Assembly: GCA_963666055.2 (NCBI GenBank)
Contig: CAXWPH010000015.1
Location: 256,001 to 320,000, forward strand
Direction of reading: 5' to 3'
Source: Acidobacteriota bacterium
GTDB lineage: Bacteria; Acidobacteriota; UBA890; WLXD01
DNA length: 64,000 bases
Both the position numbers and the translations under genes were made by a program. The notes under the pieces are model-generated. The model did no database searches. It was not told where the DNA came from and saw only the letters and a program-made list of their open reading frames with translations. This document shows, piece by piece, positions 17,138 to 63,900 of the stretch (position 1 is its first letter; the number at the start of each line of letters is the position of its first letter).

Positions 17138-17159
17138 CCTACGGCGGCCAGATAACACC

Positions 17160-17436
17160 CTAGCAGGCCGTGGTGAGAGTGTGGTGGGTCTGGCAACAGG
17201 GACTTGCGAAGTGGAGGCAAGGAGAGAGGAGGAGGCGATGGACCCGATCGTTGACGAGGAACGACGCAGCCTACGCGCGCAACCCCCTGTTGCCCGAAGG
17301 GTTACGGCGATTTGGGGCCATCTGCGGCGTTGGCCTTCCTCGACGATGGCTAGGGCATCGCCTGTGTCAGGCCGTCTTGCATCTGGCCCCAACTCGCCGT
17401 AACCAGACCCACCACACTTTCACCACGGCCGGCTAG
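17160..17436. mobile_element. 277-bp MITE-like element with ~33-bp terminal inverted repeats bounded by CTAG
   Basis: Left end CTAGCAGGCCGTGGTGAGAGTGTGGTGGGTCTGG; right end CCAGACCCACCACACTTTCACCACGGCCGGCTAG; internal palindrome GGTTACGGCGA..TCGCCGTAACC. Confidence 0.8.
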
Positions 17437-18422
17437 AGGTCGACCAGAACCTTGCCGAAGACGCCCGCTTCAACCGCCTCGTGTGCCGCCACGATCTGGT
17501 CGAGGGCGAACCGTGGCCCCAGGTGGTGCCGCAGTTGGCCGGCCTCGAGCCATCGTGAGATATCAGCAACCGCCTGCATCTTGGTGTCGTCGGGCATACC
17601 GAACACCAGCACGTGCCGCACCGTGATGTTCTTGTATATCAGGACATAGAATGGCACCGACGGCTCCGGGTTGGCCTGCGACGCGTAGGTGGCGATCACG
17701 CCGTTGTTCCTGAGGGCGGCGACGCTGGCCTCGAGGTTGCCGCCAAACTCGACCTCGACGACGCGGTCGAGTCCGGACGCACCGACGAGCTCGCTGAGGC
17801 GCTCGGCGACATTTTCGGTGCGGTAGTTCACCACGTGGTCGGCGCCACCTTGGCGTGCTAGCTCGGCCTTGTCGTCGCTGCTCACCGTGGCGATGACCGT
17901 CGCACCGTCGAGCTTGGCGAATTGGACCGCGTAATGGCCCACCGCTCCGGCCCCTCCCGTCACCAGCACCGTCTGCCCAGCCACCGACCCGTCGGCGAAC
18001 ACGCAGCGGTGTGCAGTGAGCGCGGGGATGCCCAGACAGGCGCCGGCGTCGAAGTCGGCTACGTCGGGCAAGGGTACGGCGAGATCGGAAGCCACCACGG
18101 CGAGCTCGGCGGCGGTTCCGAAGGCGCGTTCGTACTGCGCCTCGTACACCCAGACCCGTTCGCCCAGGCGGGACTCAGGCACGCCGGCGCCGACCGACTC
18201 GATGGTGCCGGCACCGTCGAAATGTGGCACCACCCGTGACCCTTGGCTTGCGCCGCGCCCGCCAAGGCGTCGCTTCACATCGACCGGGTTCACGCCAGAG
18301 ACCGCAATGCGAACCTGCACCTCGCCGGCTTCAGGCTGCGGCGCTTCCAGCTCGCCGACGTCGAGTACCTCGGCCGCCGCACCGAATTGCTCGAACCAGA
18401 CCGCGCGCATCATCTCGGGCAT
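17433..18422 (-). CDS. NADPH:quinone reductase (zeta-crystallin-like MDR)
   Basis: GVNPVDVK, GIPALTAH, GGAGAVG. Confidence 0.9.
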   Translation of the reverse strand: MPEMMRAVWFEQFGAAAEVLDVGELEAPQPEAGEVQVRIAVSGVNPVDVKRRLGGRGASQGSRVVPHFDGAGTIESVGAGVPESRLGERVWVYEAQYERAFGTAAELAVVASDLAVPLPDVADFDAGACLGIPALTAHRCVFADGSVAGQTVLVTGGAGAVGHYAVQFAKLDGATVIATVSSDDKAELARQGGADHVVNYRTENVAERLSELVGASGLDRVVEVEFGGNLEASVAALRNNGVIATYASQANPEPSVPFYVLIYKNITVRHVLVFGMPDDTKMQAVADISRWLEAGQLRHHLGPRFALDQIVAAHEAVEAGVFGKVLVDL

Positions 18423-30994: not shown

Positions 30995-31023
30995 CAGGAA
31001 ACACTTCGACCACGGCCTGCTAG
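30991..31023. repeat. CTAG repeat family copy supplying both convergent stop codons
   Basis: CTAGCAGGAAACACTTCGACCACGGCCTGCTAG. Confidence 0.7.
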
Positions 31024-32288
31024 CGGCCACCCTCCGATGCGGCGCCGCTCTGGCTCCGCAGACCGGCGAGCATGGCCCTGATCTGCTCCCGGTCGGGCAC
31101 CACGACGCCATTGTCGAGCCGGCCCGGCACTTCGCTGGCAGCCGCGATCTGCTCGATCTCTTCGGCGTCCCAGCTGACCGCGCCGGGCTCGGGAAGCATG
31201 CCGTAGTACGCCAACGTGCGTTGGAGCGCCGCCGCCAGGCGGTTGCTCAAGTTGTCGGCGGTGTCGGGGGATCTCGGCGACCGTTCCTCGATCGGCCCCG
31301 TCTGGAAACCCTCTTCGATGCTGTCCCCAAAGGCTGCCAGCACGGTCGTGAGTCCGTCCACGACGTGCTCGGGCAACGCCGACAGGCTGGCGCGAAGCAA
31401 CGACGGCAACAGGCAGGCGACGGCAAGCCCGTGCGGGACGCCGTGCCGCAGGGTGATCCCGTAGGAGATAGCGTGTGCTGCGGCAGTTCGCGTAAGGCTT
31501 ATCGCCATGCCGGCCAGCGAGCTTGCCTCCAGCATGTGGCCACGCGCCGCTATGTCGGTGGGGTCGTTGTCGACGACCGGCAGGGCTCGCCGGATTCTAT
31601 CGAGCGCCGCGAACGACAGCGCCTCGCTCAAGGCGCTGCGTCGCCGTGACCACAGTGACTCGACGGCGTGCCCGAGGGCGTCGGCCGCCGTCTGTGCCGT
31701 CAAGTTGGCCGGCATACCCACCGTGGCACGCGGATCGAGAACCGCGAGCTCCGGGCGGTTCAGTGACGTGTCGAGCGAGAGCTTGCGACCGGCATCGGTG
31801 TCCCAGATGGTTGCGAAAGGCGTGACCTCGCTGCCGGTTCCCGCCGTGGTCGGGATGGCGACGAAGCGCGGTGCGGCGCGAGCCCGCGGCTCGTGCTTCC
31901 GGTGAAGCAGCGACAGTGCGTCGGAGTCGCTGCCGGCGGCGCAGTTAGCCACCTTGAGCGCGTCGATGACACTGCCGCCGCCCAGCGCCACCACCGTGCA
32001 CGGGCGCTCGGCCCGAATGAAGTCCGCCGCCTCGTCGACGTGCCGCGGTTGCGGATTGGGCGGCAGGCCGCCAAAGGTGCGGACGTTGCCCACCTCGCCC
32101 AGCGCCTCGATCACCCGACCTAGTATTCCCTGGCGCTGCATGGCGCTGCCGCCGGTGAAGAGGCCGATTGTCGTTGCGGAGTCGGCGCCGGAATTCAACG
32201 CGTCGACGCGGGCGGGAAGGTCGGCGAGCGCGCCGTCGCCGCAGATCACCCGGGTCCCGCGCCAGGTCCATTCCGCCGGCGAGGTCAT
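31020..32288 (-). CDS. Phosphonoacetaldehyde reductase (iron-containing ADH; PhpC/FomC-like)
   Basis: GGGSVID..K, PTTAGTGSEVTPFATIWD, DALGHAVESLWS, AISLTRTAAAHAISY, VPHG; translationally coupled to ppd. Confidence 0.82.
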   Translation of the reverse strand: MTSPAEWTWRGTRVICGDGALADLPARVDALNSGADSATTIGLFTGGSAMQRQGILGRVIEALGEVGNVRTFGGLPPNPQPRHVDEAADFIRAERPCTVVALGGGSVIDALKVANCAAGSDSDALSLLHRKHEPRARAAPRFVAIPTTAGTGSEVTPFATIWDTDAGRKLSLDTSLNRPELAVLDPRATVGMPANLTAQTAADALGHAVESLWSRRRSALSEALSFAALDRIRRALPVVDNDPTDIAARGHMLEASSLAGMAISLTRTAAAHAISYGITLRHGVPHGLAVACLLPSLLRASLSALPEHVVDGLTTVLAAFGDSIEEGFQTGPIEERSPRSPDTADNLSNRLAAALQRTLAYYGMLPEPGAVSWDAEEIEQIAAASEVPGRLDNGVVVPDREQIRAMLAGLRSQSGAASEGGR

Positions 32289-33442
32289 GCGCCGCTCCGC
32301 GCCAGGTAGCGGCGCAGGCGCTCGGCTACCTCCGACGGATGCGTCGCCGGCCGTCCCAGCGGATGCACCGATCCCTCGAGGATGCGCACGTGCAGCAGGG
32401 AAGGGCCCCGCCTCTCGAGGGCGGCACGAAGCTCGGTCTCCAGCCTCTCGCCGGTGACCAGGCTACGCGCGTAGCGGTAGCCCACCGAGCGCGCTACACC
32501 GGTGAAATCGACGGTGTCCGAAAGCGTCTGTTGCCCACCGGTTGACTCGTGAGCGTTGTTGTCGAGGAGCACGTGCACCAGCCCTTCGGGACGATAGTGG
32601 CCGACCGACACCATGGCCTCCAACCGCATCAGCGCTGCGCCGTCGCCGTCGATGACCACGGTCCGTAGCTCTGCCGCGCAGTGCCGAGCCAGCCCCAGGC
32701 CAAGGGTGCTGGCGCAACCCATCGAGCCCACCATGTAGAGCTGATTCTCGGTGTCGCGCAGCGTGTAGAGCTCGCGCCCCGTCTTGCCGGTGGTAGCGAG
32801 AATTGGGTGCGACTGCCCCACTACTTCAGCGATCCGCGCGATGCAGTCGTGGCGCCTCAGCTTCGGCTTTCCGGGTTCCGGCTCGATGCCAGCGTGATCC
32901 CGCGGCGGTCGCGGCGCCCGGTTGGTGCTCTGCAGGTCATACGGTTCGATGGACCCCTTCTGCATGATCAACGCGAAAGATCGTCGCGCTTCTGCCAGGT
33001 AGCGCCGAGCGCGGCCCATCTGCGCGCTCAGCTCATCGAGGTCCTGGCAGAGCACCTCGGTTTCGAGCTCCATCGCCTCGAGCATCGTCCGTGTTGCCGT
33101 TCCCATGATCTCGTGCTGCGGTTCGTCGCCGATTCCCGGCTGCCCGCGCCAGGTGACCACCACCAGCAACGGGATCTGGAACGGCTGTGCCAGCGAGGTC
33201 AGCGGGTTGACGGCGTTGCCGAGGCCGGAGTTCTGGAACATCACCACCGGCTGCATGCCGGCGAGCTGGGCGCCGCACGCATAGGCGACCGCTTCGCCCT
33301 CGTTGTTGAGGGGGACGTAGGTGCCCGGCCGGTTGTCGATCAGGTAATTGACCACCGGCTTGAAGAGCGAGCACGGCACGCTGGTGTACAGGTCGAAACC
33401 CTGCGCTTCCATCTCGGCGACGAAGCCGGCCGCGGGTATCAC
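32285..33442 (-). CDS. aepY: Phosphonopyruvate decarboxylase
   Basis: VPCSLFK, NNEGEAVA, QNSGLGNAVNPLTSL, WRG.PG..DEPQH, TTGKTGRELY, YMVGSMGC, DGDGAALM, HESTGGQ. GTG start at 33442. Confidence 0.93.
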   Translation of the reverse strand: MIPAAGFVAEMEAQGFDLYTSVPCSLFKPVVNYLIDNRPGTYVPLNNEGEAVAYACGAQLAGMQPVVMFQNSGLGNAVNPLTSLAQPFQIPLLVVVTWRGQPGIGDEPQHEIMGTATRTMLEAMELETEVLCQDLDELSAQMGRARRYLAEARRSFALIMQKGSIEPYDLQSTNRAPRPPRDHAGIEPEPGKPKLRRHDCIARIAEVVGQSHPILATTGKTGRELYTLRDTENQLYMVGSMGCASTLGLGLARHCAAELRTVVIDGDGAALMRLEAMVSVGHYRPEGLVHVLLDNNAHESTGGQQTLSDTVDFTGVARSVGYRYARSLVTGERLETELRAALERRGPSLLHVRILEGSVHPLGRPATHPSEVAERLRRYLARSGA

Positions 33443-33476
33443 CGGCGCCGGCTCGTTCCGGGAAGCGCGGCCGGCA

Positions 33477-33959
33477 TCAGAATTCCAGCGCGTCCGAGTA
33501 CTTCTCGATGTCGTCGATGTCGAGCCAGTTGCCGGCGATGTACGTGACCCGTACCTCGGCCCCCTCGGCAACCAGGTGGTTCAACAGCCGCGACATTCGC
33601 ATGGTTTCGAACCCTTCCGTCGAGCGCAGCTGCTCGAGAGCATGTCGCAGCGCGTTGGCACCGGTCTTCGTGAGCTTCATCAGGCCGATCGATTCACCGT
33701 CAGCGTTGTCCGGGTGGAGGTCCGGGTCCATCTTGTCCATCAAGACCGGCTCCTCGGTGTAGGCCGGCGTGTAGGGCCGCGATGCTTTGATGAACTCGGT
33801 GTATCGTGCTGGTGGCTCGGCAGCGGTGTTGGAGTCGACGACGATGACCACGTCGCCGGGCTCCCCCTGGAGCGCCTGCAGCACGTAGCGCTTGAAGATG
33901 ATGTCGCCGAACGAGATGTAGGTATCACCTCGGATATGCTCGGCGGCGCAGGCGAGCGA
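33477..33959 (-). pseudogene. C-terminal nucleotidyltransferase-like segment typical of PEP mutase (PepM) fusion proteins; mutase domain absent
   Basis: SLACA..ISFGDIIFKRYVL..VVIVVDS..GESIGLMK..VRVTYIAGNWLDID, lying directly upstream of ppd. Confidence 0.7.
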
Positions 33960-35648
33960 GGTGTAGGCGGCGTCGACGCGTCCTCGGCGATCGGCTTCCA
34001 CGAGACGGCGAACCTCGTCGAACTCGAAAAGACCTCGCTGCGTCAGCGAACGTTTCGACAGCACCTCGCGGCGCAGCTCCACCAGATCGGAATGTAGCCA
34101 TTGGCGCAGGGGCGCCGCGAAGCCGCTCTTGGGCCGATAGATCACCTCTCGGGGTAGGTACGGCTCCATCGCCTTCTTGAACACGTGCTTTAGTGTGCCG
34201 CCGGCGATTTTCTGGTGGCTGGGGATCGCCGCCGCGAGGTCGACCACCTGCAGGTCCAGCAGCGGCACCCGCACCTCGACGCCGGCGTACATGCCGGTTT
34301 TATCGGTGTAGTTGAGGTTGTGGTCGGCGAGAAAGTGCTTGGCGTCGATATAGAGCATGCGCTCCAGCGGATCGGCGTCATTGCGCACACGGGCGAGCGA
34401 CTCGGCGAGCGGATGGGGAGGATCCTGGCGGTGGATCTCTGCCTGCACTGGAGGTGTCAGCAGAGCCCGCCGCCGCCATTCGGGCGTCCACTCCAGATAT
34501 GCGGCTATGCGCGCGTCGCCATCCAGGTTGGCGTGGGCGAACGTCTTCGCCAGTCGTCGCACGAGCGGCCGACGCATTCCGGGACCAGGAATAGCACCAC
34601 ACTGCAGGGCCCGGGAGGCGCCGGCGAGCGCGCCTCGTGCGGCGCGCGGCAGCCACGACCACAGCCGCTCCGAGCGTAGCGCCTGGTGACGCCGGTACCC
34701 GCCGAGGATGTCGTCGCCCCCCGCGCCGGACATCAGCACCTTCAATCCGTCTTTGGCGGCGCGCTCGCAGATCAACAGCGCGTTGATCGGCGCCGGGTCG
34801 GCCTGCGGCTCGTCCAGACACCAGAGCATGCGCTCGAGCTCGTTGATCATCTCGGGCCCGGCACGCACGATTTCCAGATCCACTCCTAGGTGGGCCGCCG
34901 CCTGGCGAGCGTAGGGCAGGTCGGCGGGGTTGCCCTCGATGCGGTCCGCCCCCTGAAAGTCCATCGTGTAGGCCACCGTGGGGCTGTTGGCGTCGGCACG
35001 GCGCATCATCGCGACGACGGCGCTCGAATCGAGGCCGCCCGACAGGAACGCTCCCACCGGAACGTCCGACAGCAGCTGCCGCCGGACGGCGGCTTCGACC
35101 TCCGACGCCAGCTGCGCTGCGACGCCGTTACCCTGAGCTACAGCGACGCGATGCCGGCGGCAGTCCTCGGCTTGCGGCAGTTCGTAGAAGATCCAGCTGC
35201 GCGTCACAGCACCACCGCGAAGCACGAGCGCCTCTCCAGGGCGCATCTTCTTGACCGTTCTCAGCGGCGTGCGAGGCGCCGGCGCCCACAGATAGGTCAG
35301 GTACTGGTCGATGGCGACCAGATCGAGGTCGCGGGGAACCTCCGAGCTCGCCAGGATCGCCTTGAGCTCGGAAGCGAACAGAACGCCGCCGCCGGCGTGC
35401 GCGAAGTAGAGCGGCTTGACGCCCAGGCCGTCCCGCGCCAGCAGCACGTCGCCGCTCTCGATGCCCTCACGCCGACCGCTGTGCCGGCCATCGTAGAGGG
35501 CGAGCGCGAAGATTCCGTTCAGCCGCTCGAGGAAGCCCGGGCCTTGTGTAGCGTACAGGTGCAGCAGCACCTCCGAATCGGATCGACTGGTGAAACGGTG
35601 GCCGTGCTCCTCGAGCTCGCGTCGGAGCGTCGGGAAGTTGTAGGTCTC
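33960..35648 (-). pseudogene. asnB: Glutamine-hydrolysing asparagine synthase-like amidotransferase, truncated at both ends and fused in frame to the NTP-transferase segment
   Basis: ETYNF..SDSEV, ARD.LGVKPLY, FASELK, SDVPVGAFLSGGLDSS, SGAGGDD, EVRVPLLD, RPKSGF; the N-terminal CGI is missing. Confidence 0.85.
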
Positions 35649-35665
35649 AGCTCTATCGATTCCTG

Positions 35666-36934
35666 GTGGGCCCGCTGTTCGTCGAGCGCGGCAAGCTCGT
35701 CTCGACGGAGCTCATCGGCGATCCGTCGATCCACCAGGACGGGCAGTGGGCTGCCGTCTTGCGACACGGCGCCATCCCGTTCGTGTCGTATCCATACGAG
35801 TGGCCGTTCGGCATGTTGCGCGATGCGGCACTTCTGCAGTTGGAGCTTGTGGCCGCCGCCCTCGACGAGAACATGACGCTCAAGGACGCCACCGCCTTCA
35901 ACGTGCAGTGGGATGGCTCGCAGCCAGTGTTCATCGACATTCCCTCGTTCGAGCCGCTCGATCCAGGCACCCCGTGGGTGGGCTACGAGCAGTTCTGTCA
36001 GATGTTCTTGTACCCGCTCATGCTGCAGGCGTACCGCGGCATTTCCTTTCATCAGCTACTGCGTGGTCGCCTCGATGGCATCGAGCCGTCGGACTGCTGG
36101 GGCATGCTCTCTCGGCGTGATCTTCTTCGCCCCGGGGTGCTGAAGCATGTGTTCCTGCAGTCGAAGGTGCAGGCGCGATTCCGGGACCGGGAGGGCGACA
36201 TCAAGGGCGAGCTGCGCGACGCTGGTTTCGGTGCCGAGATGATCAAGGCAAACATCCGGGGTCTGACCAAGGTCGTCGGCAAGCTCGATTGGACGCCCGC
36301 CGAGTCGGGGTGGGTGAACTACGGTCGCTGCACGCACTACGACGACCAGGCACGGCAGGCGAAGGGGACGTTCGTAGGCCAGGCGCTGGCCGCGCGCCAC
36401 TGGCCCATGGTTTGGGACCTGGGGTGCAATACCGGCAGGTATTCGCGTCTGGCTGCCGAGCACGCGGATCTGGTAGTGGCGATGGACGCCGATCACCAGT
36501 GTGTCGACCGACTTTACGAGAGCCAGCGCGGCGAAGGTTCGCGCCGCATCCTGCCGCTGGTGGCGAATGTCGCCGACCCCTCGCCCGCGCTCGGGTGGAG
36601 GGGGCTCGAGCGCAAGACGTTGGAGCAACGCGGCCGGCCCGATCTAGTCATTTGCCTGGCTCTGATTCATCATCTGGTGATCGGCGCAAACATCCATGTC
36701 GATGAGCTGGTGGGTTGGCTTGCCGACGTCGGCGCCGACCTGGTGATCGAGTTTGTTGAGAAGTCGGACCCGATGGTGCAGCGACTGCTACAGAACAAGG
36801 ACGACATCTACGACGATTACGACCGCGCCAACTTCGAGCGTGTGCTGGCGGCGTCGTTCGAGGTCGAGCGATCCGAGACCATCGCTGGGGGCACTCGGAA
36901 GCTGTTCTTCGCCCGCAATCGGGGTCGCAAATGA
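35666..36934 (+). CDS. NoeA-like class I SAM-dependent methyltransferase (probably N-truncated)
   Basis: IPFVSYPYEW.F.ML.DAA, LKDATAFNVQ, DLGCNTG, LALIHHL, IEFV.K.D.MV. Confidence 0.8.
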   Translation: MGPLFVERGKLVSTELIGDPSIHQDGQWAAVLRHGAIPFVSYPYEWPFGMLRDAALLQLELVAAALDENMTLKDATAFNVQWDGSQPVFIDIPSFEPLDPGTPWVGYEQFCQMFLYPLMLQAYRGISFHQLLRGRLDGIEPSDCWGMLSRRDLLRPGVLKHVFLQSKVQARFRDREGDIKGELRDAGFGAEMIKANIRGLTKVVGKLDWTPAESGWVNYGRCTHYDDQARQAKGTFVGQALAARHWPMVWDLGCNTGRYSRLAAEHADLVVAMDADHQCVDRLYESQRGEGSRRILPLVANVADPSPALGWRGLERKTLEQRGRPDLVICLALIHHLVIGANIHVDELVGWLADVGADLVIEFVEKSDPMVQRLLQNKDDIYDDYDRANFERVLAASFEVERSETIAGGTRKLFFARNRGRK

Positions 36935-39000
36935 GCCCGGCCGGCGTCTGGACCGAAGGTCAATCGACTGCATGGTCGCGGCGCGCGGTGGTCGTCGGGG
37001 CGGCCATGTTCACGCCCGGCGTGCTGTTCGTGCTGGTGTTCAATTCGATCCTGCTGGCCAACCTTGACGAGGTCGCGTACGACACCACTCTGGTGCTCAT
37101 ATTCTTCGGGCTGTTCGTAGGCACAACGACGGCGTGCGTGGCGATCTTCGCGGCAGGTCTGGGGTCGAAGAACTGGGCGCGGCTGGCCCGCGCCGTGGTT
37201 GCGGCCGGCGCCTTGGTGTTCGTGTTCGAGCTGCTGCGCCCGTTAACGGTAGCGGCGGCGGGCATCCGCGGAGCTTTCGGGATCGAGTTGGTCGCCGTGG
37301 TGGTGGTCGCGGCTCTGGTTCTCAAACCGAGCCTGCGTTCGATCTTCCTCGTTCTTGCGGTGGTCGCCCCCGTTCAGATTACGTCGGCCGTCTACCAACA
37401 CGTCACCACCGTCGCTGGCACGACCGCGTCGAGGCAGGCTCAGCGGGTCGCCCGGCTTCGGCTCGAGCCGGTAGGACTCATCTCTGATCCGCGTCCGGTA
37501 TTCCGTTGGCCCGAGTTCGGCGCCGGACACCGCTACGAGATCGAGGTCGTGGATGACGTTACCGGGGTTGCTGTGGTCCGGGAGGGCGTCGACGGTAATA
37601 GGCACCGGCTGGCCGCCGACTTGGAGGCAGGTCACCAGTACCGTTGGCGTTTCCGAACCCTGCCCAACGGCGAGCCAGACCGGTTTCGAGGCTGGGTGCG
37701 CTTCCGACTCAGCGACGCACGCCTCAGCCCGCATCCGGAGGGCGGGGAAGCTCTCGGCGCTTCGACTGCCCCCATGGATACTCCCAACGTCTATCTTGTC
37801 GTCCTCGATGCATACCAGTCGGAGAGCTACGAGTACCTGCGTGACACGCGGCCGGAGCTCACCGAGCTGCCGGTGACCTTCTTCCCGCAATTCCGGGTTA
37901 GCTCCGGCAAGACCTGGTCCTCGCTGACGGAGATGTTGCGTGGCGAGCACTATTTGCCCGACCATCAGATCGAGGAGTGGCGTGTTGCGGCGCCGGCAGA
38001 GGGTCTCCTGGGGGACCTGTTTCGCCATGGCGTGCAAGTGCATCAGTACCCGTACTATCGAAACGACTGCTACGAGTTCGCAGTGGCGTGCCGCGACACA
38101 GTGCGTTCCAAGAAGGAGTTTGCGGGTCGCTCGCATAGCATCGCCATCGTCGACCTGTGGTTTCTGAACACCATGCCAACGACCGTGCGCCGCACCATCC
38201 TCGGCGACGCTGCGGCCGCCGACGCAGCCAGCTGGGACTACGGCTTCTCGATCACCGATCTCCTGCTGGGCGAGACCGAGGGCCCGGCTGTCAGCCACAA
38301 CGCCTACTACTCGCTCAAGCAGTTCGAGCGTGTGCTCGACGAGGAGACACGTCGACCCGACAGCGGCCAGCTCGTATTCGCCCACATCATGCTGCCGCAT
38401 TCACCGTACGTCGTCGGCGCCGACTGCGAGTACCTCGGGCAGGTAGGGGAGGACGACGACGTCATTGACCGGCTGCTCGATCAGACAACTTGTGCCAACC
38501 ATCTACTCGGATCATTGTTTGATCGCCTCGAGGAGCTCGGGCGGCTCGATTCTTCGCTGGTGATGGTGATTTCCGACCACGGCACCTTCTGGCGCCCGAC
38601 CGACGACGAGCGCCTGCAGCCGTACCTGTCACTGGAGGCTACGATCCCGTTCCTCGACGTCGACGAGGTCGACAGCGCGACGTGGTCTTCCGACATGCTA
38701 GAGGTACGTTCTTCGGCCCTGATGCTGGTGAAATTTCCGCGCCAGCGCGAGTGGCAATCGTCGGCGCAGCCGGTGCAGATGATCGATGTGGCGCCCACGA
38801 TTGCGGCGCACTTCGGTGCCCCGGTGGAGCACTATGCCGGCCTGCCGATCGATCAGATCGGTCCGAACATGGAGCGCGAGACGCTGTTCTACGGCTTCAA
38901 TAAGATCCCGCGTGCTGGCGCGCCTGCGGTAATGTCGATTTATCGGCGAAACGGCGATGGTGACTGGCTGTACAGCCACGACATCGAGACGCTCCAATAG
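36931..39000 (+). CDS. Membrane-anchored sulfatase/LtaS-fold hydrolase or transferase
   Basis: About 5 N-terminal TM segments; PNVYLVVLDAY, T.SSL, HIMLPHSPY, ISDHG, IDVAPTI. Confidence 0.78.
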   Translation: MSPAGVWTEGQSTAWSRRAVVVGAAMFTPGVLFVLVFNSILLANLDEVAYDTTLVLIFFGLFVGTTTACVAIFAAGLGSKNWARLARAVVAAGALVFVFELLRPLTVAAAGIRGAFGIELVAVVVVAALVLKPSLRSIFLVLAVVAPVQITSAVYQHVTTVAGTTASRQAQRVARLRLEPVGLISDPRPVFRWPEFGAGHRYEIEVVDDVTGVAVVREGVDGNRHRLAADLEAGHQYRWRFRTLPNGEPDRFRGWVRFRLSDARLSPHPEGGEALGASTAPMDTPNVYLVVLDAYQSESYEYLRDTRPELTELPVTFFPQFRVSSGKTWSSLTEMLRGEHYLPDHQIEEWRVAAPAEGLLGDLFRHGVQVHQYPYYRNDCYEFAVACRDTVRSKKEFAGRSHSIAIVDLWFLNTMPTTVRRTILGDAAAADAASWDYGFSITDLLLGETEGPAVSHNAYYSLKQFERVLDEETRRPDSGQLVFAHIMLPHSPYVVGADCEYLGQVGEDDDVIDRLLDQTTCANHLLGSLFDRLEELGRLDSSLVMVISDHGTFWRPTDDERLQPYLSLEATIPFLDVDEVDSATWSSDMLEVRSSALMLVKFPRQREWQSSAQPVQMIDVAPTIAAHFGAPVEHYAGLPIDQIGPNMERETLFYGFNKIPRAGAPAVMSIYRRNGDGDWLYSHDIETLQ

Positions 39001-39010
39001 CGAGCCCGCC

Positions 39011-40099
39011 GTGACGCAGCCGCTGCTCATCATCATTCTGGACGGGTGCGAGGCCGGCTACCTCGAACGGGCGAGTACCCCCCACCTGGATCGGCTGGCA
39101 TCTGGCGGCCAGCGCTTCGTCGCCAGCGCCGTCGTCCCCACGGTGACCAACGTCAACGTCACCTCGTTGCTCACCGGAGCCCCACCGTCGCAGCACGGGA
39201 TCACCGGCAACACCTATCTCCGCATCGATGACGGTGCCCTGGTTCCGATGAACGACCGGCGGCAGCTTCTGTGCTCCACCCTGTTCGCGCGCGCCCGCGC
39301 CGCAGGTGGGACGACGGCTTTCCTCTCCGCCAAGCGTAAGCTGCTGAGCTTGTTCGGGCCCGATCTCGACTTCGTCGGCTCGGTCGAGACACCCCCCGAT
39401 TGGGCTGTCGAGGCAATTGGCGAGCCTCCAGACATCTACCATCCGGACGCTAACCTCTGGCTCCTGAGGGCGGCCGCCTTGCTGCTCGAGCGCCGGTCGA
39501 TTGACCTGCTGGCGGTCTGCACCACGGATCTCGTGCCCCATCTACACCGACCAGAACATCCCGAGGCATGCGATCATTTCGAGCGCCTCGATGCGTTGAT
39601 CGGACGACTGAGCGAGCTCGCCCTGGATGCCGCGATGGTGATAACCGCCGACCACGGCATGCGCGACAAGCCGCGGATAGCCGACATTGGGCCCAGCCTC
39701 GAGACCTACGGTGCGCGCGTAGTGCCGGTAATCAAGGACCCCTACACGCTCCACCACGGCAACCTGGGTGGAGCCGCGTACGTCTACTTGGAGCAGCCCG
39801 AGCGAGCGCCCGAGGTCGCTACCGAGCTTTCAGCGGTCGAGGGTATCGAGCAGGTGTTGACGGCGGACGAGGCACACCGCGAGCTCGCGCTCGACCCGGA
39901 TCGGGTGGGTCATTTGGTGGTGCTAGGCGATGCGGATACCGTGCTTACATACGGGTCCCCGGAGCTGTCGGTGGACTCGCTCCGATCTCACGGTTCCGTT
40001 CACGAGCGTGCGGTCCCGGTGATCACCTCGAACCTGGAGCCGATCAGCGCGTCCCTCGCCTGGGAGGTCACCGCGACTGCTTTCGAGATGACGAGATAG
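39011..40099 (+). CDS. Phosphonoacetate hydrolase (PhnA)-like alkaline-phosphatase-superfamily enzyme
   Basis: LDGC, PTVTNVN..S..TG.PP..HGI.GN, TTD..H, TADHGM, DPY..HHG.LG, LRSHG. Confidence 0.75.
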   Translation: MTQPLLIIILDGCEAGYLERASTPHLDRLASGGQRFVASAVVPTVTNVNVTSLLTGAPPSQHGITGNTYLRIDDGALVPMNDRRQLLCSTLFARARAAGGTTAFLSAKRKLLSLFGPDLDFVGSVETPPDWAVEAIGEPPDIYHPDANLWLLRAAALLLERRSIDLLAVCTTDLVPHLHRPEHPEACDHFERLDALIGRLSELALDAAMVITADHGMRDKPRIADIGPSLETYGARVVPVIKDPYTLHHGNLGGAAYVYLEQPERAPEVATELSAVEGIEQVLTADEAHRELALDPDRVGHLVVLGDADTVLTYGSPELSVDSLRSHGSVHERAVPVITSNLEPISASLAWEVTATAFEMTR

Positions 40100-40206
40100 C
40101 CGATGCTACGATGCGATCTTGCGGTGTTTGACACCCGAGGGAGCGGCGGCGAGACTGCAGGCAGGCGCCCAACCCGCCGCGTGCTGAATCCCAGGAGGCC
40201 AAGCCG

Positions 40207-41550
40207 GTGAGTATTCCGAACGTGTCCCCGGAGCATGCCGGGCATCTGCTCAAGGACTGGAAAGAGGAGCTCAAGATCAGCAGCGCCGAGCTTGCCGAGG
40301 AGTCTGGTCTCGCCGAAGATACCGTGCGCGAGCTACTCGCAGGTGGCCGCGTCGGCACGTTTGATGAGTTGATCCAACTTGCCGGTGTTCTGAACCGCAG
40401 TTTGCGAGACCTGCTGCCCTACGAAGACGATCTCGTCGATGGCGTCAAAGTCCTGCGTCACGACAGTGCTCGTATGTTCCAGCAGGATCGCGGCGGCGGT
40501 TTGCAGTACACCTACTGGGCGCGCGCAACCTCGAGCGCGATTCCGGACTTCGTGCCGGTGGAGCTTGTCCTGCACATCAGCGACCCTGATCGGGTGGTGC
40601 CGAACCTGGGACACTTCTTCCACCAGTACACCGAGATCTTGGACGGTGGCCCGGTGACCGTGTTCTGGAAAGATACCGACGGTGAGACACACTCGTACAC
40701 CGGAACCGAGGGCGATACGTGGCTGATTCCTGGGTTCACCCCCCATTGGTTCACCTCACCCGACCCCGACAACCTCGGCAAGATCATCGCCTGCACGATC
40801 GGCCAGCACCTGACCGGCGATACACGGCAGGAGATCATCCTGTCTGGCGCCGAGAGATTCGCGGGGCGTTTCGAGAAGGGGTTGCAGGCTGGGTTGCTCG
40901 CTTCCCTGCGCCAGAACCGGCGCCTTTCACTGGCTGCGGCTGTGGGCCTGGCCGGCATCGAGACGGAACGCTTGACCGCGCTGGAGGCGGGGGAGGCGGA
41001 GCTCTCGGACGATGAGGTCGGCCGGCTGGCCCGTGCCTACAAAGTCAGCGAGCGCGACCTGATGCCGCAACACGATGACCTCGAGAACAAGCTGACGATC
41101 CTGCCTAAGGCCGAGGCGCATCACGAGCGCTTCGATTACGGGGAGCGCTACCAGCGTGTAGCGACGTCGCGGTTGCCCAACATCGTCGCCAGTGAGCTAC
41201 GGCTCAACGGCCAGGCCGATCCCGACTTCGTCGACTTCCCTGGACACACCTACCTCCAGGTATTGCGCGGACCCGACGTGGTCGTCGAGTGGACCGGTGA
41301 GGGTGGAGCGAATTCCGAAACCGCCGGCACCGGCGACACGTTCCTGATCTCGGCGTTCACGCCCTATCGTATCCGCCCGTCGGAGCCGGGGAGTCAGGGC
41401 CGCGTCCTGGAGCTCAGCATGGCCCAGCATCTTCTCAACGGCGATGCGTTGCGCGAGGCGGCGCTGGTCGGGTTCGACAACCTCGAGCGCCTGGTGAAGC
41501 CGATCTCGTACTACGCGCAGCGAGCTCCCGAGAGTGTCGAGGTCGAGTGA
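40207..41550 (+). CDS. Methylphosphonate synthase / 2-hydroxyethylphosphonate dioxygenase-like tandem HTH-cupin enzyme
   Basis: 447 aa with a duplicated HTH+cupin; NLGHFFHQY..GDTWLIPGFTPH (His-x3-Gln..His); second cupin lacks the distal His; phosphonate gene context. Confidence 0.8.
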   Translation: MSIPNVSPEHAGHLLKDWKEELKISSAELAEESGLAEDTVRELLAGGRVGTFDELIQLAGVLNRSLRDLLPYEDDLVDGVKVLRHDSARMFQQDRGGGLQYTYWARATSSAIPDFVPVELVLHISDPDRVVPNLGHFFHQYTEILDGGPVTVFWKDTDGETHSYTGTEGDTWLIPGFTPHWFTSPDPDNLGKIIACTIGQHLTGDTRQEIILSGAERFAGRFEKGLQAGLLASLRQNRRLSLAAAVGLAGIETERLTALEAGEAELSDDEVGRLARAYKVSERDLMPQHDDLENKLTILPKAEAHHERFDYGERYQRVATSRLPNIVASELRLNGQADPDFVDFPGHTYLQVLRGPDVVVEWTGEGGANSETAGTGDTFLISAFTPYRIRPSEPGSQGRVLELSMAQHLLNGDALREAALVGFDNLERLVKPISYYAQRAPESVEVE

Positions 41551-42311
41551 CGGGCATCATCGTCGGTGCCGGCCGAGGGGCCCGGCTCAAGCCGGCGACT
41601 AGCGAAGCCCCCAAGTGCCTCATGGATGGCCTGGGTGGACGTCGCTTGCTCGACTGGATACTTCAGGCGCTTCGCCAAGGTGGTGTCGACGACATCGTCT
41701 TCGTCGGTGGCTATCGGATGAAGATGGTACAGGCGCTGTATCCGGAGCTGCGCTACTACCGTAACGATCGCTGGCAAGACAACAACATTCTGGCCTCGCT
41801 GATGTACGCTGCGTCGGAGTTCGACACCGACGTGATGGTTTCCTATTCGGACATCGTCTATCGCGATTCGATCGTGCAACGTTTGCGCGAAACGTCGGGC
41901 GACGTGGCGTTGGCGGTGGATATCAACTGGCGCCAGTCGTACCTGGGGCGCGTTGGACACGCCGAGTCGGAGGCCGAGAACGTCACTCTCGAGGGCGGGC
42001 AGGTTCGGCGCGTCGGGAAGCACCTACACGCCGACGCTGCCGACGCTGAGTTCATCGGCCTGGCCTACTTCTGCGCCGCAGCGGCGCGCACCATGCGCGA
42101 TCGATACCAGGAGCTCGAGGCTGGCCAGCCCGGGCCCTTTCAGCAGGCCGAGATGCTCGAGAACGCCTACCTAACCGACATGCTGCAGGAGCTCATCGAC
42201 ATGGGGCTCGACGTCAGGATGGCTGCGGTAGACGGCCCCTGGTTCGAGCTTGATACTCCGCATGACTTGGAACGAGCCCGACAATCCCTCACGCCGCTCA
42301 AGCGCGAATGA
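41547..42311 (+). CDS. Phosphocholine/phosphonate cytidylyltransferase family (LicC/PntC-like)
   Basis: GAGRGARL...T...PKCL, NNILASL, SYSDI, AEFIGL, YLTDMLQELI, WFELDT..DL. Confidence 0.85.
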   Translation: MTGIIVGAGRGARLKPATSEAPKCLMDGLGGRRLLDWILQALRQGGVDDIVFVGGYRMKMVQALYPELRYYRNDRWQDNNILASLMYAASEFDTDVMVSYSDIVYRDSIVQRLRETSGDVALAVDINWRQSYLGRVGHAESEAENVTLEGGQVRRVGKHLHADAADAEFIGLAYFCAAAARTMRDRYQELEAGQPGPFQQAEMLENAYLTDMLQELIDMGLDVRMAAVDGPWFELDTPHDLERARQSLTPLKRE

Positions 42312-43987
42312 TCGGCGGGCTGAGCAGCGCGGCGATCACCGATATCGCCAGGATCACCAACCAAAGAGCACTCGATCGAGCCGAGAGAATCGCCGGGTAG
42401 ACACCCTCCAAGTCGATCCCTCTGGAGCCCTCGCGTTCGTCCTCTCCGGCCCAGTGAACCAGGAACAGGGCGAACCAGAAGACCACCTGGTACTCCACGA
42501 AGATCAGGAACGGGCCCCAGAGCAGAGCGAAGAACGACATCAGCGACGCCGTACCGGCCCCCAGGTACACGCCCAGCTTCATCGGGTGCAACGCACGCCC
42601 GAGCGGCCTGAGCAGAATTCGTCCGATCGCCAAACCCAGCACAAGCAACACTGCTACGCCGACAGTTCCCATCTCGGCGAACACCTGGAGATAGAAGTTG
42701 TGCGGCATGTCGAACCAGCGGTTCTCTGCTCCCGACAGCTGGTAGTAGTTGAGCAACTCCCAGGTGAACGATCCAAATCCGATTCCGGCGATCGGGTAGT
42801 CACGACCCATACGCAGAGCTTCCCGGGCCAGCACGTCGCGCCCCCCCCGCGAGGATCTCCTCCATCTGAGGAACCGTCACCAGCGCACGCACATAGCGCA
42901 TCAGCTCTGTCCCAGGCATCAACCACGTCGCGATGCCCAGCGTAATGACCACGCCGATCACGGTCACGGCGGCGAAGCGGAGCCAGAGATCGCGATCCGT
43001 CTCACCCCGCAGCGCACGCCCGGCAACCCAGCCCGCTCCCACCATGAACGGCGACAGCAGCATCGAGCCTTGCATGAGGCGCGACTCCAGGGGAATCGTA
43101 ATCAACGCCGTGAGCACCAACGCCGCGATCGAGACGGCTCGCAACAACCGGTAGCGCGAGAACACCGCCACAGCCAAGGCCAGCGGTATCAGCAACGCGA
43201 TCGTGCCGCCGAACACTGTAGCGTCCGTCATCAGCCCGGAAGGCCAACCGTTAGCCAGTGGAAGTCCGTGCTCGGGGGCATACGTCTGCACCAACGCCAA
43301 CGCCAGGCTCAGGCAGGCACCGGCAAGGAGGGCCGCGATTGCCTCGCCGATCGACCAACGGTCCGTCTCGGAGTCGACGTCGGCGTCGCCGTGGCCCGAC
43401 CTACCGACTCGCCTGGCCGCCAACGCGACGAATAGCAGCGGGCCCAGCAGCAGGTTCATGCTCGCGAACACGAACGACATGACGGTGGCGTACGAGGTGT
43501 GGACCCGGGTGAACTGTGCCAACGGCCCTGCAGCCAACAGTCGGGCGATCGTCGGGCTGTAGCGAGCGCCGGCAATGAGCCCCGAGACGACGGCCAGCGA
43601 TGCGAACACCAGCATCGCCCACAACAGCAGGCGGTCTAAGCCTGCCGCAAACTGCCAGATTCGGCGACGCTCGCGAAGCATGAGGCCTGCCAACGCAGCG
43701 TAGATGAGATACAGGTGCAGGATGGCGTCGTAGCCGAGCAGCGTCTTCAAGGGAATGGGCAAGACCGGTGCGAGAAAGAGCACCCCGAGCATGGCGATCC
43801 GCGGCCGGTAGTAGCCCAGCAGCGCGGACGCCGCGACAGCGCCGGCGGTCACAACCTGCAGCCAGCCGGCGCCTCGCGTCACGTAGAACGGGTAGCCGAG
43901 CCCAGTGAGTGTGAACCCGAGCGCCAGGAAAAGGATCCCGCCCAGCGGGAGATTGCGTTGCCGCAACAGCTCGTGGTCGAGGTTCAT
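42298..43987 (-). pseudogene. O-antigen ligase/Wzy_C-like membrane protein, frameshifted at the homopolymer near 42841-42848
   Basis: Multi-TM N-terminal part; downstream frame carries YPIAGIGFGSF..DMPHNFYLQVFAEMG. Confidence 0.75.
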
Positions 43988-44622
43988 GAAGGTCGCATCG
44001 CCGGTGCGCGGCTGACGTGGGGGTTTCCGCGTACGGAGAATCGCAGAGGCTCGTGTTGCCACTGTTGCGCGTAGCCGACACCGACGCGTGGCCCGATGGC
44101 AATCGCCGCCGCTCGCAGCAGACGATCGCGCCGTCGCTCGATGCACAGCGGCCCGGGCATGGTCAGGTCGACCCCGTCGAGCCGGCGGGTGATGCCGAGC
44201 GCTTGGCACAGCTTGGCAGGTCCGGAGCAAAGGTCGGTATCGTCACGGGCCCGCTGGCGGCGCGCGCGCATTTCGTTCATGCCCTCTTCCGGCTGCAGCG
44301 CTCGAATCAGCACGGCGATGGGCTCGCCAACTCGCCCGGCCACCGCGTTCACGCAATGGTGCATGCCGTAGACGAAGTAGACGTAGGCGTGGCCGCCATC
44401 GCCCCACATGCTCTCGTTGCGGGCGCTCCGCCGCCCCCCGTAGGTGTGCGCCGCCTTGTCCTGAACCCCGAGATAAGCCTCGGTCTCGACGATCACCCCC
44501 GACGTTCGTACCCCTCCGACGGCGCTTACGAGCCGCTGTCCGAGCAGGGCGCGCGCCAGCGTCGCCGCGTCGCGCCGAAAGAAGCGTTGTGACAGGTGCG
44601 CCGCTAAAGATCGTGTCGTCAT
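43984..44622 (-). CDS. DNA-3-methyladenine glycosylase (MPG/AAG type)
   Basis: IVETEAY, YVYFVYGMH.C.N, AVLIRA, GPAKLCQALGI, PRVGV. Confidence 0.93.
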   Translation of the reverse strand: MTTRSLAAHLSQRFFRRDAATLARALLGQRLVSAVGGVRTSGVIVETEAYLGVQDKAAHTYGGRRSARNESMWGDGGHAYVYFVYGMHHCVNAVAGRVGEPIAVLIRALQPEEGMNEMRARRQRARDDTDLCSGPAKLCQALGITRRLDGVDLTMPGPLCIERRRDRLLRAAAIAIGPRVGVGYAQQWQHEPLRFSVRGNPHVSRAPAMRPS

Positions 44623-54379: not shown

Positions 54380-55580
54380 GTGCGGATTCGGGAGGCGATC
54401 CAGATCACGGTGCAGGAGGAGCTGGCCGAGGCGTTGGGATGCGAGGCGTACGAGCGCAGCCACGAGCGCCGAGGGTATCGCAACGGCACCCAACGGCGGC
54501 GGGTGACGACGGCCAACGGGCTCCAGGAGTTGGACGTGCCTCGGGGGCGGCTGATCGACGAGGACGGCAATAGCCGGGAGTTCCGCAGCGCGATTCTGCC
54601 GCGCTACGCGCGCAGGACGCTGGAGGTCGACGAGGCGATCCTGGGCGCGTACTTGGCTGGGGCGAACACTCGGCGGATTCGCAAGGCGCTCTCGCCGCTG
54701 CTCGGTGAGGCGCATCTGTCCAAGAGCGCGATCTCTCGGGTGGTGGGCCGCTTGAAGGTGCAGTTCCAGCGATGGTGCGAGCGCGATCTGTCCGAGCAGC
54801 GGTTCAAGATCGCCTACCTGGACGGTTTCCACGTGAAGGTTCGCCCGGCGCGTCGGGTGGTGTCGGTGCCGGTGCTGGCCGCGATGGGAGTGGCGGAAGA
54901 TGGCCGTAAGGTCTTGCTGGCGTTGCGTTTGGCAGCCAGCGAGGCGGGTGTGCACTGGAAAGCGTTCATTGAGGATCTCAAGGACCGTGGGCTGTCTGCC
55001 CCGGAGCTCATCATCGCGGACGGCCACAAGGGGCTCGCCAAGGCGACGGAACTGTGGCCAGAGTCTCAAGTACAGCGCTGCACCCAGGACAAGTGGTAGA
55101 ACCTGGTGGCTCACTGCCCGGCACACGCACGCGCCGAGCACAAGCGGGACTGGGATCGGATCATCTATGCTGCCGATGGCAACGAAGCGCGGGGCGCCTA
55201 TCGGGACTTGCAGCGCAAATGGTCGATTCTCGTGCCGGCGGTGGCTCGCAGCCTCGAGGAAGCGGGGCTGCAGTTGCTGACCTTCTACGAGTTCCCCAAG
55301 TCGATGTGGAAGTCGCAGTGCTCCACCAACGCGCTGGAGAACCTGAACCGCGAGTTCCGTCGTCGCACCAAAACCCAGGGATCGTTCAGTACCGAGGCCG
55401 CGGCCGTCACGTTGCTCTGGGGTCTGATCGCCTTCGGGCAGATCCAGCCCCGGCGCATCGTCGGTTACAAGGACCTTCCCGCCATCACCACCCAGCCGGA
55501 CCAGGCAGCAGCGTAGGAGGTAGGATCAACGGCTAACTCGGAGAGCGTCACGAAAGTCCACAGCTAACGGGACACATCCC
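54380..55580 (+). mobile_element. IS256-family element; transposase interrupted by TAG at 55097-55099
   Basis: GYRNG, VPR.R, YLDG, IADGHKGL, QRC..K.*NL, STN.LE.LNREFRRRTK; right end ..AGCTAACGGGACACATCC; left end not resolved. Confidence 0.88.
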
Positions 55581-63239: not shown

Positions 63240-63900
63240 TGTCAACGCGGATGAGACGGTGGGTTTCGTAAATTAGTGAGCATTCTCCATGGTGGCGGGT
63301 TTGTTGATCCAGGCCACGGTGGGCACCGGCGGTGGTTGAGGCACGCTGTTGACGAAGCGCTCGGGCCGCGCGCGGAAGGCCGCCAGAAGAACTTCGGCGC
63401 GCTTGTGCTGGACCGCCTGGGCGAGGCCGTGGTGCATGGTCGCTGGAGTCACCAGGCCGATGCCGGAGTGACGGTGGCAGTGGTTAAACCAATGGAAGAA
63501 GGCGCGGCAGAAGCTGCGAGCCTGCTGGATGGAGTCGAACCGCGCCGGGAACTCCGGCCGGTACTTGAGCGTCCTGAAGTGAGCCTCCGAGTACGGATTA
63601 TCCGATGACGTATACGGCCTTGAGTGCGTCTTGGTGACGCCCAGATCAGCGAGCAGGAAGGCAACGGGCTTGGACCTCATCGAGCTGCCGCGGTCAGCAT
63701 GCAGGGTGAGTTGGCCAGGCGTGATCCGCTGTTACTCGATGGCCTGGCCGATGAGCTGCTCGGCGAGAGGACCGCTCTCGCGGTGTTGCACGCTCCACCC
63801 GACTACGTAGCGGCTGAACACGTCCAGCACTACGTACAGGTACAAGTAGGTCCACTTGCTGGGCCCCAGCAGTTTCGAGATGTCCCAGCTCCACAACTGG
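63240..63900 (-). mobile_element. IS3-family transposase remnant (integrase core, internal TAA at 63732-63734)
   Basis: QLWSWDISKL, LDVFSRYVVGW, LHADRGSSM, SRP..S.DNPYSEA.F.TLKY, HSGI..TP; terminal ..TTGACA at 63240. Confidence 0.88.

What the first reader, a model, noticed from the sequence alone, without database searches (positions are those of the whole stretch)
40207..41550. Divergent 2-His-1-Gln dioxygenase with a residue pair matching neither canonical MPnS nor HEPD
Seen: GHFFHQY..GPVTVFW..GDTWLIPGFTPH and a vestigial second cupin. Established: MPnS and class II HEPD both use a 2-His-1-Gln iron triad and differ at two Gln-adjacent positions (Phe162/Ile184 in N. maritimus MPnS versus Tyr/Gly in Streptomyces albus HEPD). 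By manual alignment to the MPnS sequence as I recall it, this protein has Ile at the 184-equivalent position but Val at the 162-equivalent, plus a 2-residue insertion. Inference: it is an MPnS variant that a strict Phe/Ile motif screen would miss, or an enzyme with a new product.
Basis: partly seen in the sequence, partly recalled or inferred. Interest (0 to 1): 0.85.

Follow-up and report, generated by a model that had tools for sequence, protein, structure and literature searches.

The report
Independently duplicated methylphosphonate-synthase-like iron enzyme
This gene encodes a relative of the iron enzymes that cut 2-hydroxyethylphosphonate; it likely arose by its own doubling of an overlooked half-size family and likely makes the methane precursor methylphosphonate, although this particular genome has lost the catalytic part of the pathway's first enzyme.

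Summary
Observation confirmed: window 40207-41550 has the H136/Q140/H180 triad, Val152 opposite MPnS Phe162, Ile174 opposite Ile184, a two-residue loop insertion and a dead second cupin. The Val is weak evidence for new chemistry. The nearest relatives are not MPnS or HEPD but a family of ~240-aa single-domain enzymes, often named XRE regulators. In 120 members the 162-equivalent is Tyr 102, Phe 17, Cys 1, while the Ile is invariant; 17 of 25 loci carry pepM. Both halves of the query group with this family (99/96), so the two-domain form is likely a second, independent duplication. Likeliest product: methylphosphonate from 2-HEP (about 0.5, untested). A 1,272-bp deletion, also in contigs of two sequencing studies, has removed the pepM catalytic domain here, so this genome probably cannot start phosphonate synthesis. 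The scan earlier noted a half-size MPnS-like family in another genome (e1-3110338).

The parts
40207..41550 (+). Two-domain (HTH-cupin)x2 non-heme iron enzyme, 447 aa; catalytic N-half about residues 1-222, vestigial C-half 223-447
40612..40746 (+). Iron-triad region: H136 (40612), Q140 (40624), H180 (40744); V152 (40660) and I174 (40726) at the two Gln-adjacent positions
   Evidence: sequence and alignment to 6b9s/6b9r
39011..40099 (+). PhnA-like protein (phosphonoacetate hydrolase family), 362 aa, directly upstream
   Evidence: TIGR02335 208.7 bits, below cut-off 407.55; PDB 1ei6 E 8e-48; 73-76% orthologs named phosphonoacetate hydrolase by JGI
41547..42311 (+). Nucleotidyltransferase, start overlaps the enzyme's stop; inferred phosphonate-activating cytidylyltransferase (PntC-like label recalled)
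   Evidence: PF12804; 35-43% homologs beside most single-domain relatives
36931..39000 (+). Membrane-anchored sulfatase-domain protein; candidate transferase of the phosphonate to a surface polymer (inferred)
   Evidence: PF00884; 40% ortholog in G003 lies directly beside the nucleotidyltransferase
35666..36934 (+). Methyltransferase-like gene, apparently cut at its 5' end at the junction near 35648
   Evidence: weak PF08242; sequence; junction
33961..35648 (-). Remnant of an asparagine-synthetase-like amidotransferase; about 90 N-terminal codons and the last codons missing against G003
33477..33960 (-). C-terminal 157 residues of a PepM-nucleotidyltransferase fusion; the PEP mutase domain is deleted (1,272 bp against G003) and the remnant is fused in frame to the amidotransferase remnant
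   Evidence: 81.5% identical to the C-terminus of G003 PepM; joint in contigs of runs X1 and X3
32285..33442 (-). Phosphonopyruvate decarboxylase (start approximate)
   Evidence: TIGR03297 398 bits, above cut-off 312.5
31020..32288 (-). Iron-type alcohol dehydrogenase, inferred phosphonoacetaldehyde reductase making 2-HEP
   Evidence: PF00465; TIGR03405 240 bits, below cut-off 423.7; position after ppd as in relatives' loci

Best explanation
The gene encodes a two-domain cupin with an intact His/Gln/His triad that likely binds Fe(II) and 2-hydroxyethylphosphonate and likely uses O2 to cut its C-C bond to methylphosphonate and CO2, as MPnS does; it likely arose by a tandem duplication of a single-domain 2-His-1-Gln family, independently of canonical MPnS and HEPD. 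Shown: triad, conserved K23, R95, Y101, Y103, N133, H139, Ile at the 184-equivalent, fold, tree position, neighbouring ppd, alcohol dehydrogenase and nucleotidyltransferase. Inferred: substrate, product, CMP-activation of the product and its transfer to a surface glycan. In this genome the pepM catalytic domain is deleted, so the enzyme would work only on imported phosphonate or is a recent orphan; in sibling lineages the pathway is probably whole.
For: Triad and substrate-site residues match MPnS and are near-invariant in 120 single-domain relatives and 127 representatives. Ile174 is present in 120 of 120 relatives; Gly, part of the Tyr-Gly motif called diagnostic of class II HEPD in PMC8976061 (passage), never is. 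H139 matches MPnS H151, where class II HEPD 6b9r has Tyr. pepM lies in 17 of 25 relatives' loci and a nucleotidyltransferase match in 22 of 25. Among the genes scanned in those loci (31 proteins) none was an HMP-processing dehydrogenase. The enzyme's 90% orthologs and a 533-aa PepM cluster share longest-contig lengths 662,162 and 333,459. The core (residues 99-200) differs at 2 of 102 sites in each of six orthologs, against 10-11 of 74 in the first HTH. Tree: both halves plus the single-domain family, 99/96.
Against: No member of this lineage has been assayed, as far as my searches show. Identity to MPnS is only about 23% and structure cannot separate MPnS from class II HEPD (Z 35.1 against 35.9). 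Residues near the site differ from the canonical clades: Val152; Val118 where 119 of 127 have Glu; Tyr436 where 62 of 62 two-domain relatives have Trp. The commonest pair in the sister family is Tyr/Ile, a hybrid. The PhnA-like neighbour is not explained by methylphosphonate synthesis. No pepM in the genome. That Ile184 matters more than Phe162 is my recollection of Born et al. 2017, which I could not read.
Confidence: 0.5

Rival explanations
1. New product: the enzyme would oxidise 2-HEP by four electrons without C-C cleavage to phosphonoacetate (or make another PhnA substrate), and the upstream PhnA-like hydrolase would release acetate and phosphate: a two-gene O2-dependent HEP scavenging or recycling module.
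For: The phnA-like gene and the enzyme form a 2.5-kb block between the sulfatase and nucleotidyltransferase genes that is absent at that place in congener G003. PhnA-like orthologs share five longest-contig lengths with the enzyme's orthologs (662,162; 333,459; 44,888; 28,578; 6,174), whereas 0 of 25 single-domain loci hold a PhnA match. The genome has no PhnY, PhnX or PhnJ above cut-off, so PhnA has no standard source of substrate. The clade-specific Val152 would enlarge the pocket.
Against: No precedent found; the described HEP catabolic routes use dehydrogenases with PhnX or PhnY-PhnA (PMC13576164, abstract and passages). The block sits inside a biosynthetic surface-glycan locus next to a nucleotidyltransferase, and siblings probably keep pepM, which would make degradation futile. 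The PhnA-like protein scores below the family cut-off; general aldehyde dehydrogenases (best 398 bits on TIGR03250) could supply phosphonoacetate as a side product. The siblings are close kin, so the pairing may be one event.
Confidence: 0.2
2. Class II HEPD-like: it would cut 2-HEP to hydroxymethylphosphonate and formate, or give a mixture of HMP and methylphosphonate.
For: Same triad and fold as 6b9r, the top structural match by a margin under 1 Z unit; 102 of 120 sister proteins have the HEPD-type Tyr; Val could free the Gln ligand as Gly does (inference).
Against: No Gly at the 184-equivalent in the query or in any of 120 relatives; the Tyr/Gly pair is found in 23 of 128 catalytic domains aligned, none in this lineage.
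Confidence: 0.17
3. HppE-like oxidase or epoxidase, or an enzyme for a different hydroxyalkylphosphonate.
For: The ancestral unit is single-domain like HppE, and the strand around residues 113-122 aligns to HppE without gaps, with Val118 opposite HppE Leu120.
Against: HppE-type proteins have Glu, not Gln, and form a separate 100/100 clade. No radical-SAM methyltransferase for 2-HPP synthesis was identified in the window cluster.
Confidence: 0.06
4. Non-catalytic: a phosphonate-sensing XRE regulator, as databases name it, or a decaying relic after pepM loss.
For: Pfam finds only HTH domains; JGI names the orthologs XRE regulators; pepM is gone and two neighbours are cut.
Against: MPnS, HEPD and HppE carry the same HTH-like domains; all catalytic residues are intact and the core is far more conserved than the HTH.
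Confidence: 0.07

Closest known systems
Methylphosphonate synthase (MPnS), Nitrosopumilus maritimus, PDB 6b9s/6b9t
   Same: Two-domain fold (TM 0.85-0.87), His/Gln/His triad, K28, R102, Y108, Y110, N145, H151 and I184 equivalents, vestigial second cupin, place in a ppd-pdh cluster
   Different: About 23% identity; Val for Phe162, Val for Glu124, Tyr for the C-terminal Trp; lacks the YEYRDTAMS/RPEW signature; both halves belong to another lineage (AU p 0.0016)
Class II HEPD, Streptomyces albus, PDB 6b9r (and AlpG, PMC8976061)
   Same: Same triad and fold (Z 35.9, rmsd 2.4 over 426 residues)
   Different: Lacks the Tyr163/Gly184 motif; His where 6b9r has Tyr152; separate lineage
Class I HEPD (PhpD), PDB 3g7d/3gbf
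   Same: Two-domain HTH-cupin fold (Z 28.4-28.5)
   Different: Glu rather than Gln ligand (recalled); not found by sequence search at E 0.001
HppE, PDB 1zz6 / 5u55
   Same: One HTH-cupin unit, like the query's sister family; aligns to residues 12-196
   Different: Glu ligand, epoxidase, about 198 aa without the C-terminal helix and aromatic tail of the 240-aa family
Uncharacterised ~240-aa single-domain 2-His-1-Gln family (P0003-P0122; Omnitrophota, Planctomycetia, Nitrospinia, Actinomycetota MAG titles)
   Same: 45-53% identity to the N-half and 29-36% to the C-half; GHFFHQY, GGPV insertion, WLIPG, GQHL-GD and terminal YY
   Different: Half the size; Tyr, Phe or Cys at 152; PhnA-like gene in 0 of 25 loci

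Membership tests
MPnS/HEPD/HppE superfamily | HTH plus cupin fold with facial-triad iron site | tested here: met
MPnS/HEPD/HppE superfamily | Lys, Arg, Tyr, Tyr, Asn of the phosphonate site (roles recalled) | tested here: met
   K23, R95, Y101, Y103, N133
MPnS | 2-His-1-Gln triad | tested here: met
   H136, Q140, H180
MPnS | Ile at the 184-equivalent | tested here: met
   I174
MPnS | Phe at the 162-equivalent | tested here: not met
   V152
MPnS | Catalytic half inside the canonical MPnS/class II HEPD clade | tested here: not met
   canonical N-halves 100/100 without it; AU p 0.0016
MPnS | 2-HEP + O2 gives methylphosphonate + CO2 | not testable with these tools
   needs an enzyme assay
MPnS | Genome holds pepM, ppd and pdh to supply 2-HEP | tested here: not met
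   ppd and a pdh-like gene present; pepM catalytic domain deleted and none elsewhere in a 95.7% complete genome; probably met in siblings
Class II HEPD | Tyr163/Gly184 motif | tested here: not met
   Val/Ile; motif definition from PMC8976061 passage
Class I HEPD and HppE | 2-His-1-Glu triad | tested here: not met
   Gln140
PhnA (upstream gene) | TIGR02335 above cut-off | tested here: not met
   208.7 against 407.55 bits
PhnA (upstream gene) | DGC, Thr nucleophile, K-x-K, TTD, DH, HHG and SHG motifs of solved PhnA | tested here: met
   alignments to 1ei6 and 3szy; roles of the motifs recalled

The most novel reading that the evidence does not exclude
A separate branch of the family, single-domain in at least 163 protein clusters and doubled a second time in this lineage, is a hidden set of phosphonate oxygenases; in the doubled Val/Ile clade the enzyme has switched to making phosphonoacetate from 2-HEP for the PhnA next door, a new O2-dependent route of C-P cleavage that stays useful after pepM loss.
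Probability: 0.2. Interest if true: 0.85.

Novelty: new variant of a known kind. Interest (0 to 1): 0.6.

Why it matters
Surveys of marine methane potential count mpnS by curated residues. This lineage fails them: 103 of 120 single-domain relatives and the query lack Phe/Ile, and they are named XRE regulators or hypothetical proteins. If they make methylphosphonate, producers are undercounted among uncultured bacteria. The natural Tyr/Ile, Phe/Ile, Cys/Ile and Val/Ile series tests directly which residue decides between methylphosphonate and HMP. A single-domain Gln enzyme with its own doubled descendant also shows the step from an HppE-like unit to an MPnS-like two-domain protein happening twice. 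This genome is a warning too: an intact mpnS-like gene can sit in a cluster whose pepM is gone.

Tried and rejected
Misassembly as the cause of the missing pepM: rejected; 11,168-bp contigs of runs X1 and X3 (two studies; either may be the source sample) span 33207-44375 with 0-1 other letters and show the 1,272-bp joint. pepM elsewhere in the genome: none by TIGR02320, PF13714 or motif scan. Orthologs in kin: none among 25 other genomes of the class; the 60-relative search gave only three weak HTH matches. First scan of genome contigs with the query's own words found no relative. No RNA holder listed. Promoter and terminator scan at chance level. ESM Atlas gave only unnamed or HTH-named clusters. 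AU test for the C-half is only borderline (p 0.043). No oligomer prediction was obtained, so nothing is claimed about the assembly of the single-domain proteins. Born 2017, Peck 2011 and Metcalf 2012 were not held. Searches with no relevant paper. Lockwood's Table S2 of essential residues was not seen (the file read was another table; the supplement PDF is too large to read).

Full report
Observation. The ORF at 40207-41550 (+) is 447 aa. Its best PDB sequence matches are MPnS 6b9s (E 3.9e-31), class II HEPD 6b9r (8.2e-26) and HppE (1e-10). Counting along the printed chains, H136/Q140/H180 match MPnS H148/Q152/H190, V152 faces F162 (Y163 in HEPD) and I174 faces I184 (G184). K23, R95, Y101, Y103, N133 and H139 match MPnS K28, R102, Y108, Y110, N145 and H151. 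The second cupin has lost eight of these equivalents. An AlphaFold2 model from a 65-row alignment, mostly of more distant two-domain relatives and so leaning towards them, has pLDDT 91.4, TM 0.85-0.87 to 6b9s, 6b9t and 6b9r and Z 35.9, 35.1 and 28.5 to class II HEPD, MPnS and class I HEPD.

Nearest relatives. Full-length close homologs are few: a 90% cluster of seven members, one identical to the query, and P0002 at 63%; all have Val/Ile. The next relatives are half the size. One of them retrieved 163 clusters, of which the best 120 were listed and analysed (214-250 aa). In these, Q140, I174, H136, H139, H180, N133, R95, Y101 and Y103 are present in 120 of 120; position 152 is Tyr 102, Phe 17, Cys 1. 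With that column left out of the tree, Phe needs 9 changes, at least 3 forced by starred branches. Among 128 catalytic domains aligned (the query, P0002, P0071 and 125 of the 150 listed 50% representatives; hits without a recognisable triad were left out), Phe/Ile has 87, Tyr/Gly 23, Val/Ile 2 (query and P0002) and Val/Met 2. So Val/Ile is rare, but position 162 is loose and position 184 is what this lineage holds fixed. Names given by sources are XRE regulator or hypothetical. Genome titles include Omnitrophota, Planctomycetia, Nitrospinia and Actinomycetota MAGs; 6 of 401 genomes of G063's phylum, G063 included, carry it.

Origin of the two-domain form. I cut proteins into halves and built trees (81 rows FastTree; a 38-row subset with IQ-TREE). 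Both halves of the query and P0002 join the single-domain family (98; 99/96), while canonical N-halves (100/100) and C-halves (99/97) form their own clades. Holding the query N-half with canonical N-halves is rejected (p-AU 0.0016); holding the C-half with the other C-halves is only borderline rejected (0.043), and that branch is long. BLAST agrees: the C-half scores a median 100 bits against single-domain proteins and at most 56 against canonical C-halves. Canonical groups are database proteins recognised by motif, not the characterised enzymes themselves. An independent tandem duplication is the likely reading.

Context in relatives. Of 25 loci of single-domain members (L006 and L008 look like the same sequence; L061 and L065 left out as repeats of L023 and L021), 17 hold a pepM match, 22 a nucleotidyltransferase match (two of these only the PepM tail) and 0 a PhnA match; many are short. 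The usual order is nucleotidyltransferase, enzyme, pepM fusion, ppd, alcohol dehydrogenase. Two loci without pepM lie in genomes with pepM above cut-off elsewhere. This places the family on 2-HEP, downstream of the pathway described in PMC12619172 (passages).

Context here. ppd is above cut-off and followed by an iron-type alcohol dehydrogenase, but no pepM is found in the 95.7% complete genome. Congener G003, the only one of four with pepM, has asnB-pepM fusion-ppd-pdh at about 85% DNA identity; the window lacks 1,272 bp covering the PEP mutase domain and its EDK motif, leaving an in-frame fusion. Contigs of runs X1 and X3 show the same joint. In G003 the sulfatase-like and nucleotidyltransferase genes are adjacent; here the phnA-like gene and the enzyme lie between them. 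The enzyme's orthologs and the PhnA-like orthologs share five longest-contig lengths, and an intact 533-aa PepM cluster shares two of them. This is indirect: I did not see those contigs. The enzyme shows no decay. No PhnJ, PhnX or PhnY passes its cut-off in the genome.

Mechanism. Inferred from MPnS and HEPD chemistry (recalled): 2-HEP chelates Fe(II), O2 activation removes a C2 hydrogen, C-C scission gives a methylphosphonate radical and formate, and the residues beside the Gln decide between hydrogen transfer from formate (methylphosphonate, CO2) and hydroxyl rebound (HMP). Ile at 184 favours the first, by my recollection of Born et al. 2017, which was not held; I saw only its PDB entries and a passage in PMC8976061 calling Tyr-Gly diagnostic of class II HEPD. 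I put methylphosphonate at 0.5, phosphonoacetate or another PhnA substrate at 0.2, HMP or a mixture at 0.17, HppE-like chemistry at 0.06 and no catalysis at 0.07. Known HEP catabolism runs through dehydrogenases (PMC13576164, abstract and passages), so the PhnA-coupled route would be new.

Novelty. Works like MPnS, probably; not a member of the canonical clade. I found no paper on this branch in nine searches of an open-access library that lacks most of the primary enzymology. The family's motifs occur 0 times in supplementary files 5 and 6 of PMC9381506, which by content are the curated mpnS and hepD sets; they are trimmed alignments, so motifs could be broken (methods section read). bioRxiv 2020.11.04.368217 (passages; supplements closed) used profiles from curated sequences. 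PMC8942020, PMC9999580 and PMC8931226 were seen as passages only. The scan's note e1-3110338 reports a 228-aa MPnS-like protein in another genome; I found the half-size family before reading it and cannot tell whether it is the same clade. Verdict: new variant of a known kind, interest 0.6.

Noticed in passing
window 17156-17440: A ~285-bp element with ~28-bp terminal inverted repeats; 90 copies of 250 bp or more in the genome. Looks like a MITE.
   Followed up: partly
P0123, P0127, P0128, P0140: Two-domain relatives with both triad histidines but Gly, Ser or Ala at the Gln position (GHFQHG, GHFQDS, GHFQDA, GHLQDA); they form their own clades. A possible third ligand type.
   Followed up: partly
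P0143, P0160, P0183, P0196: A second group of single-domain 2-His-1-Gln proteins (203-242 aa), apart from the query's sister family in the trees; P0143 has Phe/Ile.
   Followed up: partly
window 42298-44000 (-): O-antigen-ligase-like gene split in the window; contigs of X1, X3 and X8 lack one base at 42841, X4 agrees with the window.
   Followed up: partly
window 54380-55516 (+) and 63276-63680 (-): Transposase-like reading frames in pieces (family judged from the sequence by recall).
   Followed up: no
L005, L012, L024, L060 upstream of the enzyme: The nucleotidyltransferase is fused to an N-terminal XRE HTH domain.
   Followed up: no
L021, L022, L024 downstream genes: NUDIX, cytidylate-kinase-like and a third conserved gene follow the phosphonate genes; L025 has a CDP-alcohol phosphatidyltransferase, hinting at a phosphonolipid or glycan product.
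   Followed up: no
G000 contigs C5, C6, C13: ARAGORN calls a tRNA-Pyl (CTA) and two tRNA-SeC genes.
   Followed up: no
P0134, P0180, P0194, P0223, P0251: MPnS-type domains in longer fusion proteins (700-813 aa); P0251 is named a class IV alcohol dehydrogenase by JGI.
   Followed up: no
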